DNA from: Ginglymostoma cirratum
Taxonomy: Eukaryota
Direction of reading: 5' to 3'
Assembly: GCA_024137785.1 (NCBI GenBank)
Contig: JAHRHZ010000282.1
Location: 248,001 to 312,000 of the forward strand
Length of the DNA stretch: 64,000 nucleotides
A program made the translations under genes and the position numbers. Every line of letters starts with the position of its first letter. The first letter of the stretch is position 1. Of this stretch, positions 2,031-53,809 are shown piece after piece. The notes beneath the pieces are model-generated. The model did not search any database. It was not told where the DNA came from and saw only the letters and a program-made list of their open reading frames with translations.

Positions 2031-2837
2031 ATGTCATCTGGAGATGTGTGTTTTCTGCTCACAGCTGCATCTCTTGTAACCAGTAGGTTGAAAAATTATC
2101 TATTTCCGTGCTCAGTTCTTTACCGGGAATTACATTTATTCGAGCAGTTCGTGCAACATGGAGGCAACAACATATTCTCCCCAAATGGACAACACTTGTA
2201 TCAAAACATGTCCCCAACAATGAGCAGATTTTGGTAGAAATTAGCGTCTGTACTTGACTGAATGACAGTGGAAGAGTTAAACTGGAAATCCAGACAGGAC
2301 TGAGGCCATCGAGATGATTCCACAGAGGGAGAGTTTAAATCGAAAAGCAGTTTTCAGTTTTCCATTCAAGTTTCAAGGAAAGAAATGGGAAATTACTTCC
2401 CCGTGCGAAATGGATTCTAATTCAGCTTCCCTGATTTATTTCTTATGTTATTGATCAAGGTAAGTGGACTATTTCTGGGCAAAAGAACATTGAAGTGCTT
2501 TGTTTAATTTTCTATAAATCCTGGTTCTTACAGGACTTTGTCGTGGTGATTCTGTCTCACAAACAGCGGCTGCAATTTCATGAAATGAGGGGGATGATGT
2601 CCAGTTATTCTGTAATTGCTCTACAATCAGCAACAATCCTGACCTGTTATGGTATCGTCAACATACCAGCAGCTCCATACATTTTGTGCTCCTCAAAAAC
2701 CAATATAGCGAGACACCAGCGAGTTTTCTCCGGGACCGACTTTCCTCGGATTTTGATCACGTGATCTGCACTATCTCGCTGAGACTGTTGAAAACAGAAC
2801 TGTCAGACTCCGCTGTGTATTACTGTGCATTGAGCCC
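2031..2837 (+). pseudogene. TRAV: TCR alpha/delta V segment pseudogene (leader 2031-2082, V exon 2534-2837)
   Basis: Leader MSSGDVCFLLTAASLVT then a GTAGGT donor. After the CAG acceptor the exon reads DSVSQTAAAIS*NEGDDVQLFCN...LLWYRQH...DSAVYYCALSP, with an in-frame TGA at 2581-2583. Paralog of the intact V at 53467. Confidence 0.9.
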
Positions 2838-2876
2838 CACAGAGACTTTGACCGGGGCTGACGCTGCGCAAAATGT
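2838..2876 (+). other. 23-spacer recombination signal sequence (degenerate)
   Basis: CACAGAG + 23 nt + GCAAAATGT directly after YYCALSP. Confidence 0.8.
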
Positions 2877-14940: not shown

Positions 14941-15143
14941 AGTTCTTGTACAGCCTCATACTTTTTGTTTCGTTGTGTTTCACGGCACTGTAATACATCG
15001 AAGCATCTGACAGCTGGGCTGTGTTAATAGTGAGAGTGGTGGAGTCTTTCTCACCATTCGCAGATACTTTAAACATTGCTTCAATGTTTTTATCCTTAAA
15101 TGTGAAGACGATGTATTCAGGAGCGTGATTGGTGAACTGACTT
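14941..15143 (-). pseudogene. TCR V segment 3' fragment with degenerate RSS, 5' part displaced by a SINE
   Basis: QFTNHAPEYIVF...DSTTLTINTAQLSDASMYYSAVK (YYC->YYS), then CACAACG + 21 nt + ACAAGAACT. Confidence 0.8.
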
Positions 15144-15689: not shown

Positions 15690-16009
15690 AGATATTGCAC
15701 AACGGGTTTCACATTTTGTCTCACTGTGCCTGCTTTGCACAGTCGTACATTATGTCATCGAGATCATGGTGCCATCTGCACAGATGACGTTGGACGTATT
15801 TGATTGGTGAATGGACAGCGTGTGGCGGTCAAGAGACTCGTTGCCCTGGTGTATGGAACCGATCAATGTCAGAGGCCCTGTCATTGTTTGACTGTACCAG
15901 GCTACCGTGTCTGTCGTACCAAGGGAGAGATGCCAGTCCAGTTCAACACGGTCGCATTCTATAGATGCGAACTGATATATCTGTCTGCTTTGATCCTCAC
16001 ACTGGACAG
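15690..16009 (-). pseudogene. TCR V segment pseudogene with 23-RSS
   Basis: AVQCEDQSRQ...VELDWHL...VAWYSQ..., then after a frameshift DDIMYDCAK. RSS is CACAGTG (15728-15722) + 23 nt + GCAATATCT (15698-15690). Confidence 0.8.
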
Positions 16010-26460: not shown

Positions 26461-28173
26461 TACGTTCCAATTTTCTATGCTTCTGCAATGCATCGTGTAG
26501 ATGGTAACACTTCTCTTACTGAGTATCTGTTATGCAGAGATTGAACACTTCTGGAGGCATTGCACATCAACATTTTTACGAGATGATATCGAGTTTCTTG
26601 AGTCAAATTGGAGTTTTACTCATCCAGGCCACTCCATGAGCCATGGAAGATCAACTACGATCATAGGAAATGGCAGTACAAGCTTGAAGTTGGAATCTCC
26701 TCTTGTGTTTCTAAATTTTATGTCCGTGCATGATCAGCGATGACGTATTCTCAGGCCAAAATTGGGACAAGCAGCAATTGATATCCTTCTAACGAGTTTG
26801 AACAGGTTGGCTTTCTTTTCTACGCTAAACATGGAACCAGGAACCAGGGCTTGAACAGGAATATGTTAAATGGTGCACGAGATAAGTGAAATGAATTCGG
26901 AAAATCGTTCTTGTGCATGACTCCACGACAAACAGCCATGAATACCAAAGTTTACTAAAAGAACAGATAGCGATATTAAGAATAGTGTACTCGTAAAAAA
27001 GACACATTAGAGCAGAATAGAACACGACAGAATGGGAAAGTCCTAGAGGGCTACATGGCAGTACGCATTATCGGAGAGCAGAGAGGGGCTAATGTGACGT
27101 AAAAACACTGGCTCTGTCAAGTTGGGCAAGTTTCCTTTCCCTGCTGCGAAGGTTGTGCATGTTATAAATTTCAGAGGAAACTCGTCCCAGAGAACACGGG
27201 AGAGAATCAGACAATGCTTTGGAGGGAACTGAAAAGAGGCATCTCCCAGTAAGTAACAGTAAATCCACAGCACAACCTGCATAAACTGAAGCCAAACGAC
27301 AACTGAGAGACTTTGGGACAAGCTTCCACGATGTCCAAAACCACAAGTAGAACAAACTAACTTTTGATATAAAATGGAACAGACTGAAAATTTGAATTAA
27401 TTTGAAATTAATACAGTCGTGCACCTTTATAGCCAAAACGTAAAGTCAAAAATAACTAATAGAACACTCCCAAAAGTATTGATCTGTCAAAATTATTGAT
27501 CTTTGGAAGTCAATATTCAATTTGAGTGAATTTATGCTTTTGGTTAGATCTTCCTGGGAGCAGTGACAGAACCTAATGAGGTCATGCTTGAAAACATGGT
27601 TTTTGGAAAGTAAGTTTCTCATTTATGTCAAAATGTTTATTTACATGCATTTTTATTTCATAAAAAGAAGTGAAAATTAAAATCATGCAGCCATAGAGCA
27701 CAGAGGAATGCTATTTGACTATCTATGTACCCCCTCTACGAAGGCAGAAACCAATTAGTTCTCAAAACTTTGCTGTTTTCCAATAGTCCAGTTTGCATTT
27801 CCTCTTCCAATTATTATCCAATTAGAACACGCAAGTTATTGATGAATCCACTCAGGATAACCGCCCCTTACGTAAAACGTAATATGACATCTCTTTTACT
27901 GATTGATTTCCCGTTAAAGCATGTAAAATGCAGCAAGGTACAGAAGACACTAATTTAAGGTAAAATCAGAACTCTTCCAACGAATCAGACTTTTTCTCGA
28001 TAACCAGTGCATTGCCGAACAATAAATGCGATTGAATATGCAGAATTTGACCACAAACCATCCCACGCTCTTCACCCCAACCCCGGGCTCAGAGTTCAGC
28101 TGTACAAACCTCTGCAAACATGATTTTATGCCGCTCTATCTGTGAAATGCGTCTATAACCTTCACCAAGTTCA

Positions 28174-28326
28174 GACTTTTGGACAGCTCTCTCTGTGTCA
28201 CTATGTCTGGAATCGCACCATGTTCATGTTCTTATTCATCTCTTCCCCTGTTCTGTATCACTGTGCCTGTAATCTTCACCATGTTCAGGTTCTTGTGAAA
28301 CTCTCTCCGCGCTCTATATCACTGTG
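28174..28326 (-). repeat. Tandem ~60 bp repeat of 23-RSS units downstream of the supporting V-delta
   Basis: RSS1: CACAGTG (28326-28320) + 23 + ACAAGAACC. RSS2: CACAGTG (28265-28259) + 23 + ATAAGAACA. RSS3: CATAGTG (28205-28199) + ~16 + degenerate nonamer. Confidence 0.85.
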
Positions 28327-28615
28327 TGTGCTGAGCGCCGTCTCCATGCACAGTAATAAGCAGCAGAATCACTCAGTTGTGTTCGAGAGATTATTAACAG
28401 ACCGATTTTCGCCTCAGGATCAATAAAAGCAGAAATTCTTCCCTCAGAAACAGAAGTGCCTGTTTGAAGAAGGAATTTCGGAACCTATCCTGGAGACTGA
28501 CTATACCAGTAGACTGTGTACTGACACAACCCTGAATATTCAGAGTTTAAAGTAACAGTGTCAGTAGCAAGAGGCGTTTGCGGAGGCGGACTCTTGGACA
28601 GCAGGTAATCGGAAT
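28327..28615 (-). pseudogene. TRDV: NAR-TCR supporting TCR delta V segment (leaderless, CDR1 Cys), pseudogene
   Basis: After a CACAG acceptor: (D)SDYLLSKSPPPQTPLATDTVTLNSEYSGLCQYTVYWYSQSPG*VPKFLLQ...GRISAFIDPEAKIGLLIISRTQLSDSAAYYCAWRRRSA. Extra Cys in CDR1, first canonical Cys->Ser, TAG at 28485-28487. Splice phase matches the J donor at 31394. Confidence 0.85.
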
Positions 28616-31394
28616 CTGTGGAATGATATTCAACACCATTACTTATTCAGCCTCTGTTTCTCGGAGAAATTGTAAATCACTGAAATTGTTCTTTTTTTGT
28701 GGCAATTCAATCTGTTGATAGCCCATTTGAACCTATTCTCTTTTATCGAAATAATAAGCTGATTAGGTGATGAGATGACCCTTTGTTTTACTTACTTTAT
28801 TCGAATGATGAGCAATACACTTTCAAAACTGATGGGAGAAACTGATTCAACTGCAAGCTTCAAATGGGCAATCGCCAGCAGCAGAATCAGGCAGAAAATA
28901 AAGGGCTATGGGAAGTAAACAAGTACCATGGGAGCAATTGCAAAGGATTCTGAAGAGGACAGGAATCATATGGGGGGCGGTGGTGGTGAATGGTATCGTG
29001 ATTGATTCTGTGACGTATGTTATACGTCTTCTACTGAAGGATAAGCCCGAGGGAACTTGTTATCCTATTTATTCTGTTGGCAGATAAATCCGAGGGAACT
29101 TCTTAAAGTTCCATTCAAAGCAGGAGGGCGAAGGTTTAAGGTGAAATGGAAAAGATTTTTAACATTCCTGAGGGGCAGCTTTGCACACAGAGAGTGGCGC
29201 GTATATGGAATGAATTCCCAGAGTTAGTGTTCGAGGCAGGTGCAGTTAAAGCAAAGAAAGCATATTTGGACAAGTAAATGAATGCTCAATGTTTAGAGGA
29301 ACACAGGCCAAAGGCAGGCAAATGATATTACTTCAGTTTGGGACACCTGGTCGGCGGGGACCATTTGGATGAAAGCTTACATTTCAGCGCTGTCTGACTC
29401 TATCACTCTATAATCAATATCTACAATTAAATGCCCAAAAGTCATCCAAAAGTTTTGCACGGATGTGTGCGTGTTTGATCAACAGAGATGAGCTCAATCA
29501 TTTCCTGCAGTTTAACTTTTCACAGGAGATTCTACCCGAGTTTTGATCTGCATTATATTTTATTTGCAAATCATGTCACTTTCTTATCCGTTTACCACCA
29601 ACGTGCATAATTTTCGATTAGTATCATTTTATTTCTGCTTTTCCTTTGTCCCTTTTTGTTTTCTTGCAATCGTGGCGCTCGGTGCCAACATCGTTCAGTC
29701 ATCGTTTGTGTTTCGTCTGTATTGTTTCCTAAGGGGTTTTGCTGTTACTGATGGGATCTCCCCTCCAGCTCTCCCTCAGTTTCAATTCTTTGAACAGATT
29801 TATTCTCTGTTGGGTATTTTGACTGAAGATTTTTCTGTTTTAATTTTGCATTAAATATTAAGACAAGAGTCAGGTCAATCGGCCCCAGTGATTTGCCCGC
29901 CCCATCCTGAAATCTAATTTACATTGTCCATCCAGCGTGCTGTGGAGGTGTATTCTATTCTCCTCCCTGCATTTTCACATCCTTCCATTAATGACACAAT
30001 AGAATGTGCTCCAATCTCTCATGAGACAAGTTCTACATTCTGCCATCTCATTTTATATATTTCTCCATATTCATGACTTGATTTATTCTGTTATTGAGCA
30101 TGATTTATTAATGTTTCGATGCTCTTGGCTCCGTCTCATTCACCCCATTCGCTGGATCATGGTACTAAGATTTCCAAGAAGTCTCGTGGTTCTTCCCTGG
30201 CTCTCAGAGAAGAGAGCGACCCATCGAAAATTATTAGGCTTTGAGCCTCCGCTATTTTCTGAATAACAGAATGCCACAGTATCACGACAATGGCTTGACT
30301 GAATTAGTTTATGTCTTAGTTATATTTGCTGATCTCTTAATATTAAACTGTGACCCCTCTGTATACTTTTTAGAGCGGGTAAATTCCACTGAACAGCTCT
30401 CCCTTAACAATTGCGTATGTTTAAATTAGATCACTTTTCCTTCTTCTGAACGCCGACCAATGCAGCTCAGACTTCACAATCACTTCACAAAGGTGAACAA
30501 TGTTATCGTCAGTGACTGCATGATGAATCTTCGCTGCACTTGCTCCAAAATAAACCGTTCCTTCCTCAAGTAAGGCGAGCAAACTTTTACCCACAACTCC
30601 AGGCTGGAACCCATTCCAGCCCTTCCCTCCAGAGAGCTTACGAAACACCCTGGTGAGGGGTTGTACTTTGATTGATGGCCCAGAAATTGCCATAAATTTC
30701 TTTTGAGGAACTTTTACTTTTTTGTTCTAAATGAGTATTTCTTCAGTTTGCATTGATTACCTTCAGCAGCTACATTACAGCAAAGCAACGTCTCAAAAAA
30801 CTATTTAAAATAAAAACGGGCTTACAGTTTTACATCCATGTATAAGGCTGGAATGTTAGGAATATTATTGGCTATATAAAAGCATACATAAAAACTATTG
30901 AAAAAATGCCATATCGATCATTCATCTCAAGGATTCCCCAACGACAAACATTCATCTACCATACAGCCGGATCACGAATGCATGATGTTCGCTGAGTGAT
31001 GCTATCAATTTTTTCGTGAGGCAAGTGTTTTTTGTCATGTTTTCCCACCCGGGACCTGACACGGACTTTAATTCCTGCCCCGTTTGGAGCTCTATGATGC
31101 CACTCCTCTGACCTAAGCTATACACTGTGCCCCATCTGTCACATGTTACTGTTAACTGTTAGACTAATAATGCCCCAGATGCAGTGAAATAGTCAACTCG
31201 GAGCCAGGTTCCATAGCCTTCCGCCTGATCAAAGTGGGACCCAGATCCCCGATTCTGCTTACAATCCAGACACTGCAATGCAGATGATTTTTTCCAAAAT
31301 TTTTGTTTTAATTTCGATGCAATTAAAGATCACAGGAATAAACTGAACATTCACCACGACAGTGTATAGAAAGGCGAAGTGTGAAGTTACTTAC

Positions 31395-31482
31395 CAGCTG
31401 TGACAATCAGCACCGATCCGGATCCATCTACATAGCCATAAACCACAGTAATGCTCCTCTCAGTCTCCCCTGTACAAGAACC
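31395..31482 (-). other. NAR-TCR J segment (31395-31443) with 5' 23-RSS (31444-31482)
   Basis: GGTTCTTGT + 23 nt + TACTGTG, then VYGYVDGSGSVLIVTA and a G|GTAAGT donor. IgNAR-like DGxG motif and IgH-type 23-spacer. Confidence 0.88.
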
Positions 31483-31789
31483 AACGCTACCTCAAAGAGA
31501 AATGGAATCATCATCACGCCGTTTGAATAGTTCATTTATTTTGGAGATTTAGAGAAATAACCAATACTCTCCGTGTCCAAGTTTTCTTTGATTCAAGCTC
31601 ATTTTCTGACCTTATTGCAAATAGTGCAGAGTGCAGGAGGCAGATGTTCACTTCACACAAAAGGAGGAGAATCTAAAATAAAATTAGTTGCTGGAGAGTG
31701 AAAGTAAATTAACCCATACTATAACGAAGGGAATTTCAGGCCCTCAGTTGACTATTGGGGCTGGAGAATTTATGTATTATCAATCCAGA

Positions 31790-31861
31790 GAAATTTCGTT
31801 GGCACCCTCTCACTGTGCATTCTCTCAATCTTACACAATGTTCCAAGCCTGTGTAAATGTT
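31790..31861 (-). other. NAR-TCR D segment (31818-31833) flanked by 12-type RSSs
   Basis: On + strand: aaatttcgt + 11 nt + CACTGTG, 16 nt core, CACAATG + 12 nt + gtaaatgtt. Lies between the V and J; nonamers are degenerate. Confidence 0.7.
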
Positions 31862-32177
31862 CTTAGAACTGATGTGGGGACATTACTGAAACAGCCGGAC
31901 TGTATTTCTGGATTCCAGTTGTAAGAACAAGATCCCGGCTCATGTGAGCATCCTTTAAATGTGGTCAGTCTTTCCGAAATTGCAATCACCTACAGTAATC
32001 CTGGGAAAGACTGCGCCATCTGAATATACTTGGAACCTGTGAAACTCAAGATGCTGTTTAAAATTATCCAATCTCAGTATAAATTGTACTGGAGGGTAGA
32101 GCTGTGAGGCAGAACTGTTTGAATTGCCAGAAGATTAACTTGGTTTTCAATTTGTTTCTGAGATGATCTCCAGTGAG

Positions 32178-32688
32178 AGATTTTGTGCGACGTGAAGCCG
32201 AGGTCCATCACTGTGTCTGTCGTACTGAGCCTTACATTAATAGGTGGCAGTGTCTTCAACTCTGATATCCCGAATTTCCAACGAAAATGTCTTTTGTGCT
32301 TCAGTCGTGGACACAACAAACCTCCCGCCGCTGGTGATCCGCTCCCACTCCTTCGCTGTCCGCGTTTTTTTGAAGAAATGTCCACGCCTAAAATAATCAT
32401 CTGAACAGGGACTACTAAACTCACAGCTGATGCTGACGGACTGGCACTCCTTCCCGGTCACCGTCTCTGTGTCACCGACTGACTGAAATAACCTGGACAT
32501 CAAACAGAGTGAGGCTAGTGAGAATTAGAAGAGACTCTCACAAATGGGTTAAAACCCCAGTCCATGTCTGCAATTCGGACGAACTCGGGCAGTAATGTAT
32601 TTTTAATTACACACATTATCGGTTTCTGTGATCAGTATCTACTGGGTAAACAGAGACACAGGATCAAAACAAGAAGATTATCCATCAT
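32178..32688 (-). pseudogene. NAR-TCR (IgNAR-like) V segment pseudogene: leader 32643-32688, V exon 32216-32492, RSS 32178-32215
   Basis: Leader MMDNLLVLILCLCLP. V reads YFSQSVTQ/frameshift/VTGKECQSVSISCEFSSPCSDDYFRRGHFFKKTRTAKEWERITSGGRFVVSTTEAQKTFSLEIRDIRVEDTATY*CKAQYDR, with the VNAR-type short FR2-CDR2 region and an FR1 Cys. RSS is CACAGTG + 22 nt + ACAAAATCT. Confidence 0.88.
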
Positions 32689-49692: not shown

Positions 49693-50028
49693 ATGCTCCG
49701 AATTTGCAGAGTCATCCTGCTGTTTTATACTCTGATGTCCACGGAGGTGACTGGAGAAGGCGAAGTGACGCAACTTCAACCAACGAATGTTGTTAGTAAA
49801 ATGGGAATTACCTTTCATGAATTGCTCCATTGCCACTACATTTAACACCGTGCATTGGTACAAACAGCAACCGAATATGCCACTGCAAAATCTGGTGATG
49901 GCCAAAAGAGAATCTGACCAGCCTGAGAGGATTACTATTTCAATCAGTGGAGATTACAAACTTAGTATCTTGACTGCGAAAGACGCCAGACTTAATGACA
50001 CTGCCACCTATCTCTGTGCCAATGATAG
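49693..50028 (+). pseudogene. TCR V segment with intronless leader; single frameshift near 49805-49815
   Basis: ATG 49693 reads MLRICRVILLFYTLMSTEVTGEGEVTQLQPTNVVSKMG. A shifted frame continues FMNCSIATTFNTVHWYKQQPNMPLQNLV...ERITISISGDYKLSILTAKDARLNDTATYLCAND. Confidence 0.85.
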
Positions 50029-50067
50029 CACAGTGTCACAAACAGAGGGAGAGTCCATACTAAAACC
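50029..50067 (+). other. 23-spacer RSS
   Basis: CACAGTG + 23 nt + ACTAAAACC (near consensus). Confidence 0.92.
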
Positions 50068-52966
50068 GACAGATTGGGAGTTCCGCTGGGCTGATTTTGA
50101 GATATCTGTTTCCTAACTCTGTGCTCCAATAAACCAAGATAAATGAAACGAGAGTAAAATACAACAGAAAGTTTGGAGCAGCAAAAGTTAAAGATGGTCA
50201 GACGCGAAGACAATTGGCTGTGCGGATGGAGGTGAAGGAAGCGTTTTTGGGAAGCCAGAGACATTGACGGAGGAAACGGAAAGGATGGACAGCAATAATA
50301 CTTGCAGAGGATAGAATGGTGTGAAATGGTTGAGGAAGAAAAGGAACGATGTGAAAAAAATAATCGAACATGATGCACAGAGTTTAAAGATCAAGCTAAA
50401 TCACAATTGAAGGAAACATGAAGAAAATGCACTGGCCTTTCCTTTAACATGGCTCTACTTCACTAAATACCCCACTGTCAACATTCTATAGGTTTCATTG
50501 ATCAGAAACTCATCTGGACTCACTGCAGAAACACAATAGCTACAAGAGCAGGCCAGAGGCGAGGAATCCTGCAACATTTCTCCTGACTCCCCAAAACCTC
50601 CCTTCCATCTAAAATGCACAGGTCAAGAGTATGATGGAATACTCCCCACTTGTCTGAAAGAGAGCAGCCCAACAACACTCCAAAAGCTTTACCCCATCGA
50701 AGACAAAGCAGCCTGCTTGATTGGCACAACATCCACAAACATCTGCTGCTTCCACCGCCGATGCTCAGTGTGTGCTATCGACAATATGCACTGCTGAAAT
50801 TCACCAGACAGCAACTTCCAAACCCACAACGACTTCAATCTGGAAGAACAAGGGACAACAGATATCTGGGAACATCACAATATTTAAGTTCCCCACCACG
50901 CCACTTACCATCCTGACTTGGAAATATATTGCTGTTCTTTCATTGTATCTCGGTCAAAATCCTAGAATTTCGTCCCTCAGTGCATTGCAGGTCAAACCAC
51001 AACAGGTGGACTGCACCTGTTCAAGAAGGCAAATCACCATCACCTTCTCAACGGAAACTAGGAACGGGTATAAATTCTTGTCTGGCTGCCACGCTGAAAC
51101 CCCACAAATTAATAAATAAAGCTAAAATCAATAGTAACACGATCTAATCATCTAATCCCTACAGTGTGGAAGAAGGGCATTGGGCCCATCGAGTCCACAC
51201 CAAGCCTTTGAAGAACATTCCACCAATCCCTGTACCCCTGAATCTCCTCTGGCTAAAAAACTTAACCTGTCGACTGTGGGAGGGAACCAAAGCACCCGCA
51301 GGAAATCCAAGCAGGCAAAGGGAGAGTGTGCAAACTCCCAAAGGCTGTTGCATGAGGCTGGTATCGAACCTTGATCTCTGCTTGTGTGTGGCAGGAGGGC
51401 TAAACATTTAGTCACTGCGTCTTAATCGAAAGAACGCTTCCATAAAATTCATCATTTGGTATTGCTCCACTCATAAATTGTTAACTTCCTGGCACCGCAA
51501 TCTTCCTAGAGGTCCAGCCAGAGTATGTTATATTCACATTCACTGAAACAGTATACAACGTTGTCTTCTTGTAGGCTCTTTGAGTCAGCTTCACCACTTT
51601 TCTTCCGATTTATTCTTGCGTCATCTGTAAACCGGGCAGTGGTACCTTCACTTCAATCAGACTTTGGATTGTGCACTGACGTATATCTCTACTGTTTCAC
51701 CATTCCCATTCAGATGAAGGAGACTTTCCCACAACGTATTTTTTAAAAAAAAATCAATTATTCTTTTATGGGCGTGACTGGCCACGCGAGTCTCTACCTC
51801 TAATTGCCCGTGACAATATGGCAAAGAGGCATCGATTTGAGCCACTGTAGTGCATCTGATACAGATACTGGAGTTACATTTACAATGACACTAAATAAAT
51901 TTAATCAAATCTGGAAACAATGGATCTTACCAGTAAGTGCATCAAAAGCAATATTTGATTCTACTGCTTCGTTGATTAGAAGTTTGCTTGTTTCTTTATA
52001 TATTTGGTTATTTTTCTCATTATTGTATCCAATCTCTCAGGGCCTCTGGTCCTCTGCATCAGTTGCAGGGAGTCATCAAAGTCCAAGAGCACCTTTTAAG
52101 TGGGGAAACACAGTTCTGATACTCGAACAAATGAACTAATTCCCGTGCCTGGTTTTGCTTACAGAAATAATAACTGTTCCGGGAAAACATTCGATTTGAT
52201 CTCTGTCGAAAACGCTGTTTGCTAATGAACAAATTTATTGTGCTCCTGAAATAACTGCACAGAGGCCGATATCCCGTCACCAAGTAACCCTTCATTTACA
52301 TATGCAGACTACACTGGCTGCTGCCAGCCAGCTTGGTGTCAGTCCCCTGAAATTAGAAGATTCAGAGCCTCCTGCTTATACCAATTTCCCAGGGCTCCCT
52401 GACTAGCTCAAGTTAATAAGCCCAACCATCGATCTCATTGTCAATGAGATCCACCTGTCTCCAAACGCTACAGTTCCTTAAGCAAAAATAAGAAAGAACT
52501 GCGGATGCTCGAAATCTGGAACAAAAGCAGGAATAGCTGGAGAAACTCAGCGGGTCGAGCAGCAACTGTGAAGAGAAAACTGAGTTAACGTTCCGGGTCC
52601 CATAAACCTTCTTCAGAACTTTGGTCCTTTCTCACAACAGCCATGATATGGAGTGTATTGAAAATAACAATTACTGCAGATGCTGAAGTCAGACACAACA
52701 ATGTGGAGCTAATGGAACTTCTCTGATGCTGCCTGACCTGTCATGTTCCTCCAGCTCCACACGGTGTTGTCAAAAGAGTTCGAAACTACTTGGTTCAATC
52801 GAGGAACAAAGGATCTTGAAGCTTATTGGCTGTCATCTGATGTGTTTGCCAACAATGAACCAATGAGTAGAGATCCGGAAATTACTCAGCCTGTTTCCAA
52901 CACTTGCTGAAACCCATCTTGTCTTCGGCCAGTTCTGCTCACTTTCATCGTGATCTCTCTGCAAAC

Positions 52967-53466: not shown

Positions 53467-53770
53467 GACTATGTCTTGGAGATTCTGTCTCACAAACAGC
53501 GGCTGCAATTGCAGTGAATGAGGGTGATGATGTCCTGTTGTCCTGTAATTACTCTACAACAAGTAGCAACCCTTACCTGTTCTGGTACCGCCAACATTCC
53601 AGGGGGTCCATGCATTTTCTACTCCAGAAAAACCGATATTGTGAGAAACCGGCGACTTTTATCAAGGACAGGCTTTCCTTGGATTTTGATCATGTGAACC
53701 ATACTATCCAGATGGGATTGTTGAAAACAGAACTATCAGACTCCGCAGTGTATTTCTGCGCACTGAACCC
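53467..53770 (+). CDS. TRAV: T-cell receptor alpha(/delta) variable segment, apparently functional
   Basis: Open frame GLCLGDSVSQTAAAIAVNEGDDVLLSCNYSTTSSNPYLFWYRQHSRGSMHFLLQKNRYCEKPATFIKDRLSLDFDHVNHTIQMGLLKTELSDSAVYFCALN with canonical Cys, Trp and YFC. Confidence 0.92.
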
Positions 53771-53809
53771 CACAGACACTCAGAACTGAGCTGACCCTGT
53801 ACAAAAACT
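53771..53809 (+). other. 23-spacer RSS
   Basis: CACAGAC + 23 nt + ACAAAAACT. Confidence 0.9.

What the first reader, a model, noticed from the sequence alone, without database searches (positions are those of the whole stretch)
28327..32688. Complete NAR-TCR cassette (L-V-D-J plus leaderless supporting V-delta)
Seen: an IgNAR-like V (22-spacer RSS), a 12/12-type D and a J with a 23-RSS whose phase-1 donor matches the acceptor of a downstream V-delta. There are extra Cys in NAR-V FR1 (GKEC) and V-delta CDR1 (GLCQY). Established: this is the doubly rearranging NAR-TCR of cartilaginous fish, with a predicted inter-domain disulfide. Both V exons are disabled here, yet the J and the V/J RSSs look usable. 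The J, D and supporting V are invisible in the ORF track.
Basis: partly seen in the sequence, partly recalled or inferred. Interest (0 to 1): 0.7.

Follow-up and report, generated by a model that had tools for sequence, protein, structure and literature searches.

The report
Dead copy of shark NAR-TCR cassette
This is a broken duplicate of a known shark T-cell receptor gene unit, in which an antibody-like domain sits on top of an ordinary receptor domain; intact sister copies are cut, joined and spliced as expected, while this copy carries stop codons and likely makes no protein.

Summary
Confirmed: leader, IgNAR-like V, D, J and a leaderless supporting V-delta lie on the minus strand at 32688-28327. 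It is a NAR-TCR cassette, a system described in 2006. This copy is broken: a 7-base deletion and a TAA in the NAR V, an altered leader donor, and a TAG in the supporting V. It arose in a large segmental duplication and is one of 11 paired cassettes found in this genome, 5 with both V exons intact. RNA-type contigs show V-D-J joints and the J-to-supporting-V splice for intact sisters. The D nonamers here are poor, and the stops could not be checked in reads. Two family-level extras: (1) a stack of 61-base units, each holding a 23-RSS, lies behind 11 of 12 supporting Vs. The scan noted this before on other DNA; new here is weak, post hoc evidence that the third unit is conserved in intact cassettes, and this copy lost that unit. 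(2) The canonical first cysteine of the supporting V is lost here and in 10 of 57 public gene models, about four separate times, always keeping the extra CDR1 cysteine. Known system, dead copy, moderate interest.

The parts
32643..32688 (-). Leader exon (43 or 46 bases, phase 1); donor changed to GTAGAT
32216..32492 (-). NAR-TCR V exon, broken: 7-base deletion between 32465 and 32464, TAA at 32239; A-B-loop Cys codon at 32446; Phe at the canonical Trp position (32377)
32178..32215 (-). V RSS, 22-base spacer, 0+2 mismatches
31834..31861 (-). 5' D RSS, 12-base spacer; heptamer keeps CAC, nonamer has 6 of 9 mismatches
31818..31833 (-). D segment, 16 bases
   Evidence: aligned with the Ds of paralogues; a paralogue's D is seen in a V-D-J joint
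31790..31817 (-). 3' D RSS, perfect heptamer; nonamer has 5 of 9 mismatches at spacer 12 (4 at spacer 11)
31444..31482 (-). J RSS, 23-base spacer, 1+1 mismatches
31395..31443 (-). NAR-TCR J (VYGYVDGSGSVLIVTA), open, phase-1 GTAAGT donor at 31394
28616..31394 (-). J-to-supporting-V intron, 2779 bases, no leader exon found
   Evidence: the matching intron is spliced out in a paralogue
28327..28615 (-). Leaderless supporting V-delta exon, broken by TAG at 28487; canonical first Cys is Ser (28544), 21-base in-frame deletion at 28453/28452 (both shared with the sister copy), CDR1 Cys at 28526
28288..28326 (-). First 23-RSS of the supporting V (unit 1 of the stack), 0+1 mismatches
28160..28287 (-). 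Rest of the RSS stack: two further, worn 61-base units (heptamers at 28265 and 28205); two middle units (about 123 bases) present in the sister copy are missing

Best explanation
The window holds every segment of one NAR-TCR cassette (leader, IgNAR-like V, D, J, leaderless supporting V-delta) on the minus strand, and both V exons carry stop codons, so this copy likely makes no receptor. How the family works: RAG joins the NAR V to its own D and J (joints seen for intact sisters), the J is spliced to the supporting V (seen), and the supporting V is separately joined at its first 23-RSS to downstream delta D/J segments and a constant region (two contigs end at that RSS; the partner segments are inferred from the literature). 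The result is a delta chain with two V domains. This copy arose when a block of about 160 kb was duplicated; its sister lies at contig position 44-48 kb. The supporting V of this copy then drifted at the neutral rate, gained a stop and lost part of its RSS stack, while the sister stayed open (inferred). The remaining signals could still be cut by RAG, but the product would be non-productive (inferred).
For: Anatomy and lesions. Tree: the window V sits among 15 NAR-TCR V rows, which join IgNAR V at 100/98; the supporting V sits in a 6-row supporting-V group at 96/91, apart from 9 conventional V rows. The best PDB hits of the open part of the window V are shark VNARs. No leader in the intron. 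Public shark and ray gene models show the same V-J-V splice layout; 55 of 56 keep the A-B-loop Cys, 57 of 57 have Phe at the Trp position, 54 of 57 keep the CDR1 Cys. On an intact paralogue (L129), contigs of 3 of 4 runs guessed to be RNA (3 studies) skip 5253 bases from the J donor to the supporting-V acceptor with GT..AG ends; 2 of 4 show V-to-J joints with inserted letters, one holding 11 bases of that cassette's D. Duplication: collinear blocks, mostly 88-94% identical, between contig 240-400 kb and 4-176 kb; exons 96% and 95% identical to the sister. Non-coding changes are equal on both branches (131 vs 124 of 3436 sites); coding changes on the window branch are 3 silent and 10 replacement or stop, on the sister branch 7 and 5.
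Against: The stops and the deletion are seen only in this assembly; the deep run that holds 80% of the stretch's words mixes paralogues and the listed rows did not include those sites. The silent/replacement contrast between the two branches is not significant (Fisher p=0.11). The window's NAR V has only 3 base changes plus the deletion, fewer than the about 10 expected if it had been neutral since the duplication, so it died later or was partly converted. No TCR constant exon was found on contig C282; the one match lies on another contig, so linkage to C-delta is not shown. The names NAR-TCR and V-delta rest on features quoted in secondary papers; no named nurse shark reference sequence came back from the searches.
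Confidence: 0.93

Rival explanations
1. The broken cassette still serves as a donor: its intact J and RSSs are used by the V (and D) of upstream cassettes, and the J is spliced past the dead supporting V to a rearranged supporting V further downstream, adding J diversity.
For: The J, its 23-RSS and donor are intact; all cassettes on C282 face the same way, so deletional joins are possible. This J differs in sequence from the other Js.
Against: The nearest acceptor is the supporting V with a TAG. RSS and J survival needs no selection at about 3.8% neutral drift since the duplication. The splices seen fit each J going to its own supporting V (the inserted letters of the odd joint match the k565 supporting V behind a J ending like that of k569).
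Confidence: 0.08
2. The lesions are assembly errors or a rare allele, and the cassette is functional in the species.
For: Lesions were not confirmed in reads. A related species holds a gap-free contig across the supporting V with the same 21-base deletion (run X3, 28351-28639, 18 differences), so that deletion at least is old and not a decay mark.
Against: At least five private changes of different kinds (7-base deletion, TAA, TAG, donor change, loss of two stack units) and a neutral-rate load of replacements in the supporting V (10 changes vs about 11 expected). The X3 contig may be the orthologue of the open sister copy.
Confidence: 0.04
3. It is an IgNAR or other Ig minicluster V-D-J that happens to lie beside a conventional TCR V.
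For: The V is IgNAR-related, and the NAR-TCR group alone has only 85/89 support.
Against: The three IgNAR-type Vs of this genome keep the Trp motif and form their own group (98/96). The V-D-J is followed by the same leaderless V in 11 cassettes, and J is spliced to it.
Confidence: 0.01

Closest known systems
NAR-TCR of nurse shark and elephant shark (Criscitiello et al. 2006, not held; described in PMC1845163, PMC12227049, PMC5931798, PMC6795676, PMC3457774, passages seen)
   Same: Leader, IgNAR-related V with an A-B-loop Cys and no canonical Trp, own rearrangement, leaderless supporting V-delta with a CDR1 Cys, J spliced to that V.
   Different: This copy is a pseudogene. Its supporting V lacks the canonical first Cys and 7 residues, and an RSS stack follows it; neither trait is mentioned in the passages I could read.
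IgNAR V (shark VNAR; PDB 7FBK, 2YWY, 7SPO among the best hits)
   Same: Sister group in the tree; short CDR2 region; similar J motif; 22-spacer V RSS.
   Different: IgNAR-type Vs of this genome keep the Trp (WYRK or WFRK) and lack the A-B-loop Cys; here the J splices to a second V.
TCR-mu of marsupials and monotremes (PMC3457774, passages)
   Same: Three-domain TCR chain with an antibody-like outer V on a supporting V; tandem cassettes.
   Different: Both TCR-mu Vs are VH-like and the system is described as convergent; its supporting V is germline-joined or lacks D segments.

Membership tests
NAR-TCR cassette | Outer V related to IgNAR V rather than VH or TCR V | tested here: met
   Tree, NAR-TCR + IgNAR 100/98; best PDB hits are VNARs
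NAR-TCR cassette | Typical leader on the NAR V | tested here: met
   Leader exon 32688-32643, donor altered
NAR-TCR cassette | Cys in the A-B loop of the NAR V (PMC1845163) | tested here: met
   Codon at 32446, out of frame in this copy; 55 of 56 gene models
NAR-TCR cassette | No canonical Trp of the WYRK motif (PMC1845163) | tested here: met
   GHFFKK; Phe in 57 of 57 gene models
NAR-TCR cassette | Own D and J with RSSs for a separate rearrangement | tested here: met
   One D and one J; joints seen for paralogues; this D's nonamers are poor
NAR-TCR cassette | Supporting V-delta without a leader, in phase with the J donor | tested here: met
   No leader in 2779 bases by a scan that found 5 of 7 controls; splice seen in a paralogue. 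The same scan gave two weak candidates more than 4 kb upstream in each of two longer paralogous introns
NAR-TCR cassette | Cys in CDR1 of the supporting V (PMC1845163) | tested here: met
   Codon at 28526; 54 of 57 gene models
NAR-TCR cassette | Supporting V rearranges to delta D/J and splices to C-delta | tested here: inconclusive
   Two contigs stop matching 3-5 bases before the first RSS of a paralogue, one going on with 63 other letters that were not shown; no C exon on this contig
NAR-TCR cassette | Inter-domain disulfide between the two extra cysteines (putative in the literature) | not testable with these tools
Functional NAR-TCR gene | Open reading frames in both V exons | tested here: not met
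   Frameshift and TAA in the NAR V, TAG in the supporting V
IgNAR cluster | V keeps the canonical Trp and groups with IgNAR V | tested here: not met
IgNAR cluster | J followed by IgNAR constant exons | not tested
   No IgNAR constant query was run; the exon in phase after J is a V, and a paralogue splices to it
IgM/IgW VH or conventional TCR V | Outer V groups with VH or TCR V | tested here: not met
   (2 VH rows, 9 TCR V rows)

The most novel reading that the evidence does not exclude
The supporting V-delta of NAR-TCR is a specialised segment in two undescribed ways. First, the third unit of its RSS stack, about 120 bases behind the first, is a selected second RAG target: a first, non-productive join there docks the whole cassette next to the delta D/J segments and leaves the first RSS for the productive join; dead cassettes such as this one lose it. 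Second, the domain no longer needs its canonical intradomain disulfide, which has been dropped at least four times (to Trp, Tyr or Ser) while the CDR1 cysteine that would tie it to the NAR V is always kept.
Probability: 0.17. Interest if true: 0.65.

Novelty: new member of a known kind. Interest (0 to 1): 0.33.

Why it matters
The cassette itself adds one pseudogene to a known locus; its value is as a natural control. Compared with its open sister and the intact cassettes it shows what decays once the gene is dead. If the stacked RSS is a real second target it would be a built-in two-step V(D)J route, which bears on the open question of how two independent rearrangements are coordinated on one chain, and it is testable by PCR on thymus DNA. 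If the supporting V works without its canonical disulfide it would be a rare natural exception for a V domain and indirect support for the long-proposed inter-domain bond. Most of these cassettes are mislabelled or unnamed in public annotation, so the map is useful for curators.

Tried and rejected
Papers: Criscitiello 2006, Criscitiello 2010 (35), Deiss 2019 (37), a 2021 Immunogenetics paper by a recalled DOI (69) and PMC12010099 are not held, so I cannot say that the RSS stack or the cysteine loss is unpublished; searches gave no paper whose listing or read passages describe them, and figure alignments are not visible. Expression of this copy: no RNA holder listed. Raw RNA runs X14 (24% read; 64 reads, all on a repeat at about 29.1-29.3 kb) and X15 (0 reads) gave nothing on the exons, but tissue is unknown and no positive control was laid, so this is no test. 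Confirming the stops in run X1 failed because paralogues are mixed and only 40 of 455 difference rows were shown. In one search, runs X16, X21 and X24 did not cover the stack beyond the first RSS; uncovered parts are no evidence, and non-productive transcripts would be scarce. Pooled test of RSS conservation in all 31 downstream units: heptamer plus nonamer 0.74 vs other positions 0.73, p=0.45, no support; six lineages including two broken ones, unit 3: p=0.26. A CDR3-lengthening role was rejected for this genome: the V frame hits a stop before unit 3 in 7 of 7 cassettes translated, although three Hemiscyllium gene models read through to unit 3. The sawshark tail P0008 did not beat shuffles (36 of 200). 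An AlphaFold model of homologue P0005 (pLDDT 81.9, pTM 0.67, two V domains) gave no cysteine distances. A first reading of the NAR V from an upstream acceptor, which hides the frameshift, was rejected after alignment with paralogues.
Full report
Setting. The window is G000:C282:248001-312000 in a 4.36-Gb genome. The closest named proteins are from carpet sharks and other sharks. I fetched all of contig C282 (1.16 Mb) and 40 kb each of C115 and C116. An iterative search found 108 V-like loci in that DNA: this is a TCR alpha/delta-type V region, mostly pseudogenes.

Observation. Near-consensus RSSs number 5 in the window against 0.13 in matched random sequence (the consensus itself is recalled). 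The D's heptamers are good but its nonamers miss at 6 and 5 of 9 positions; the 12/12 geometry is clear in paralogues at contig 372 kb and on C115.

Lesions. Alignment with 12 paralogous NAR Vs shows a 7-base deletion in FR1 that puts the V out of frame with its leader, a TAA in the YYC motif, and a leader donor changed to GTAGAT. The supporting V has a TAG in FR2. It also has Ser for the canonical first Cys and a 21-base in-frame deletion, both shared with the sister copy at contig 44 kb. I could not confirm the lesions in reads.

Identity. PMC1845163 (passages) lists the marks of NAR-TCR: leader, Cys in the A-B loop and no canonical Trp on the NAR V; no leader and a CDR1 Cys on the associated V-delta. 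All are met. In a 35-row tree the window V lies among NAR-TCR Vs (group support 85/89), which join three IgNAR-type Vs of the same genome at 100/98, away from 2 VH and 9 TCR V rows; the second V lies in a supporting-V group at 96/91. PDB hits of the window V are led by VNARs; those of the second V are weak and unspecific. A leader scan found 5 of 7 control leaders and nothing in the 2779-base intron. Other passages read: PMC12227049, PMC5931798, PMC6795676, PMC3457774, PMC3149040, PMC5192425 (45, nothing on NAR-TCR). The primary papers were not held.

Family in this genome. There are 13 NAR V and 12 supporting-V loci, forming 11 pairs: 5 pairs have both V exons open with both canonical cysteines (contig 145/139, 229/226, 372/365, 569/565 kb and one on C115, whose J my pattern did not locate), 1 is open but lacks the first Cys (48/44), and 5 are broken, the window's among them. 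More may exist outside the fetched DNA. Contig 240-400 kb repeats 4-176 kb in collinear blocks, and the window's cassette is the copy of 48/44 (96% and 95% in exons). With 229/226 as outgroup, non-coding changes are equal (131 vs 124 of 3436 sites). Coding changes are 3 silent and 10 replacement or stop on the window branch, 7 and 5 on the sister branch (difference p=0.11). The window's supporting V has 10 changes (about 11 expected if neutral); the sister's has 4 (about 10 expected, p=0.024). No TCR constant exon was found on C282; one lies on C115 at 2.63 Mb.

Mechanism shown on sisters. Four contig sets guessed to be RNA, under the same species label, were laid on the intact 372/365 cassette. 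Three of four (three studies) skip 5253 bases from the J donor to the supporting-V acceptor with GT..AG ends. Two of four join V to J with 17 and 27 inserted letters; the 17 include 11 bases of that cassette's D. Two contigs stop matching 3 and 5 bases before the first RSS of the supporting V. One run (X22) also covers introns, so it holds unspliced RNA or DNA. This shows both the first rearrangement and the splice; the second rearrangement is only hinted at, and its partners are taken from the literature.

Extra 1, the RSS stack. Behind the supporting V lie 61-base units, each with heptamer, 23-base spacer and nonamer. A profile built from first units finds 2-5 units behind 11 of 12 supporting Vs and none behind the other 96 V-like loci, with one weak stray hit; that profile would miss stacks of other sequence, and one conventional V family does have a second RSS-like site about 115 bases on. 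Gene-model tails from Rhincodon, Stegostoma and Hemiscyllium, and an unnamed Mustelus-like protein with five units, match the translated stack (0-1 of 200 shuffles for 11 of 14 segments tested). A related species' contig skips 57 bases in it. The window's copy lacks two middle units that its sister has. Pooled, downstream units show no excess conservation of the signal (p=0.45). Split by position, in four intact lineages unit 3 has 4 of 64 signal mismatches against 18 of 92 spacer mismatches (p=0.020), like unit 1 (5 of 64, 16 of 92) and unlike unit 2 (15 of 64; unit 2 vs 3 p=0.011), whereas two broken cassettes show no such contrast and all six lineages together give p=0.26. This split was chosen after seeing the data, the numbers are small, and my aligner undercounts mismatches in units 2 and 4. 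The V frame closes before unit 3 in 7 of 7 cassettes, so a join there would be non-productive. My odds: passive repeat 55%, helper for RAG recruitment 28%, two-step docking 17%. I saw the stack; the scan had noted it earlier in this genome and two others, which is not independent support.

Extra 2, the first cysteine. Among 57 public gene models with a supporting V, 10 lack the canonical first Cys (7 Trp, 3 Tyr), against 0 of 56 for the NAR V domain (p=0.001, uncorrected for relatedness); all 10 keep the CDR1 Cys; all 5 Scyliorhinus models from two species have Trp, and 2 of them also lost the partner Cys. A 64-row tree needs 4 changes (bootstrap 4-5; at least 2 forced by well-supported branches). 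With the open, apparently constrained sister copy, this suggests that the loss is tolerated and is not what killed the window's copy. These are automatic gene models, and none was shown here to be expressed.

Verdict. The system is known, so the locus is a new member of a known kind. Interest 0.33, carried mostly by the two family-level leads; the most novel reading has probability 0.17.

Noticed in passing
G000:C282:44037-48400 (L132, L002, L015): The sister cassette is fully open, yet its supporting V lacks the canonical first Cys and 7 residues; it shows fewer changes than neutral (4 vs about 10, p=0.024) and has a perfect RSS in unit 2 of its stack.
   Followed up: partly
Proteins P0018, P0022, P0023, P0026, P0029, P0034, P0037, P0043, P0047, P0048: Recurrent replacement of the first canonical Cys of the supporting V by Trp or Tyr in horn shark, smoothhound, epaulette shark and two catsharks; two catshark models lack both canonical cysteines.
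   Followed up: partly
window 15762-15965 and 14984-15139, minus strand; also C282 about 31.4/30.6, 69.0/68.3, 214.2/213.1, 315.3/314.5, 503.5/502.7 kb: A recurring pair of two different short V-like exons about 0.6-0.8 kb apart, each with a 23-type RSS in the copy read in full; all copies seen are broken. Whether the second has its own leader was not settled.
   Followed up: no
window 53484-53807 (+), RSS at 53771 and 53886; also C282 63.3, 107.5, 340.6, 599.4 kb: A conventional V family carries a second RSS-like site (22 spacer) about 115 bases behind its first one, a spacing close to that of unit 3 in the supporting-V stack.
   Followed up: no
window 2551-2874 (+) and 49784-50074 (+): Two more conventional V segments facing the other way; the first has a stop, the second has a near-consensus 23-RSS at 50029.
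   Followed up: no
G000:C282 about 240-400 kb vs 4-176 kb: Large segmental duplication (mostly 88-94% identity) that doubled three NAR-TCR cassettes and many V segments; an older, more diverged copy lies near 207-240 kb.
   Followed up: partly
G000:C115:1240450-1244300 (-) and C115:2625818 (+): An intact-looking NAR-TCR cassette lies 1.4 Mb from a TCR alpha/delta-type constant exon on the opposite strand, so it would rearrange by inversion if that is its constant region.
   Followed up: no
G000:C116 about 73.1-73.7 kb (L122): In this relic cassette an insertion of about 350 bases splits the RSS stack after unit 1.
   Followed up: no
G000:C282:1103243-1103536 (-); C115:261397; C107:60254 and 163194: One IgH-type V at the far end of the contig, and three IgNAR-type Vs on other contigs.
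   Followed up: partly
window about 29100-29330: Fragment of an abundant repeat inside the J-to-V intron; it drew all 64 RNA reads of run X14.
   Followed up: no
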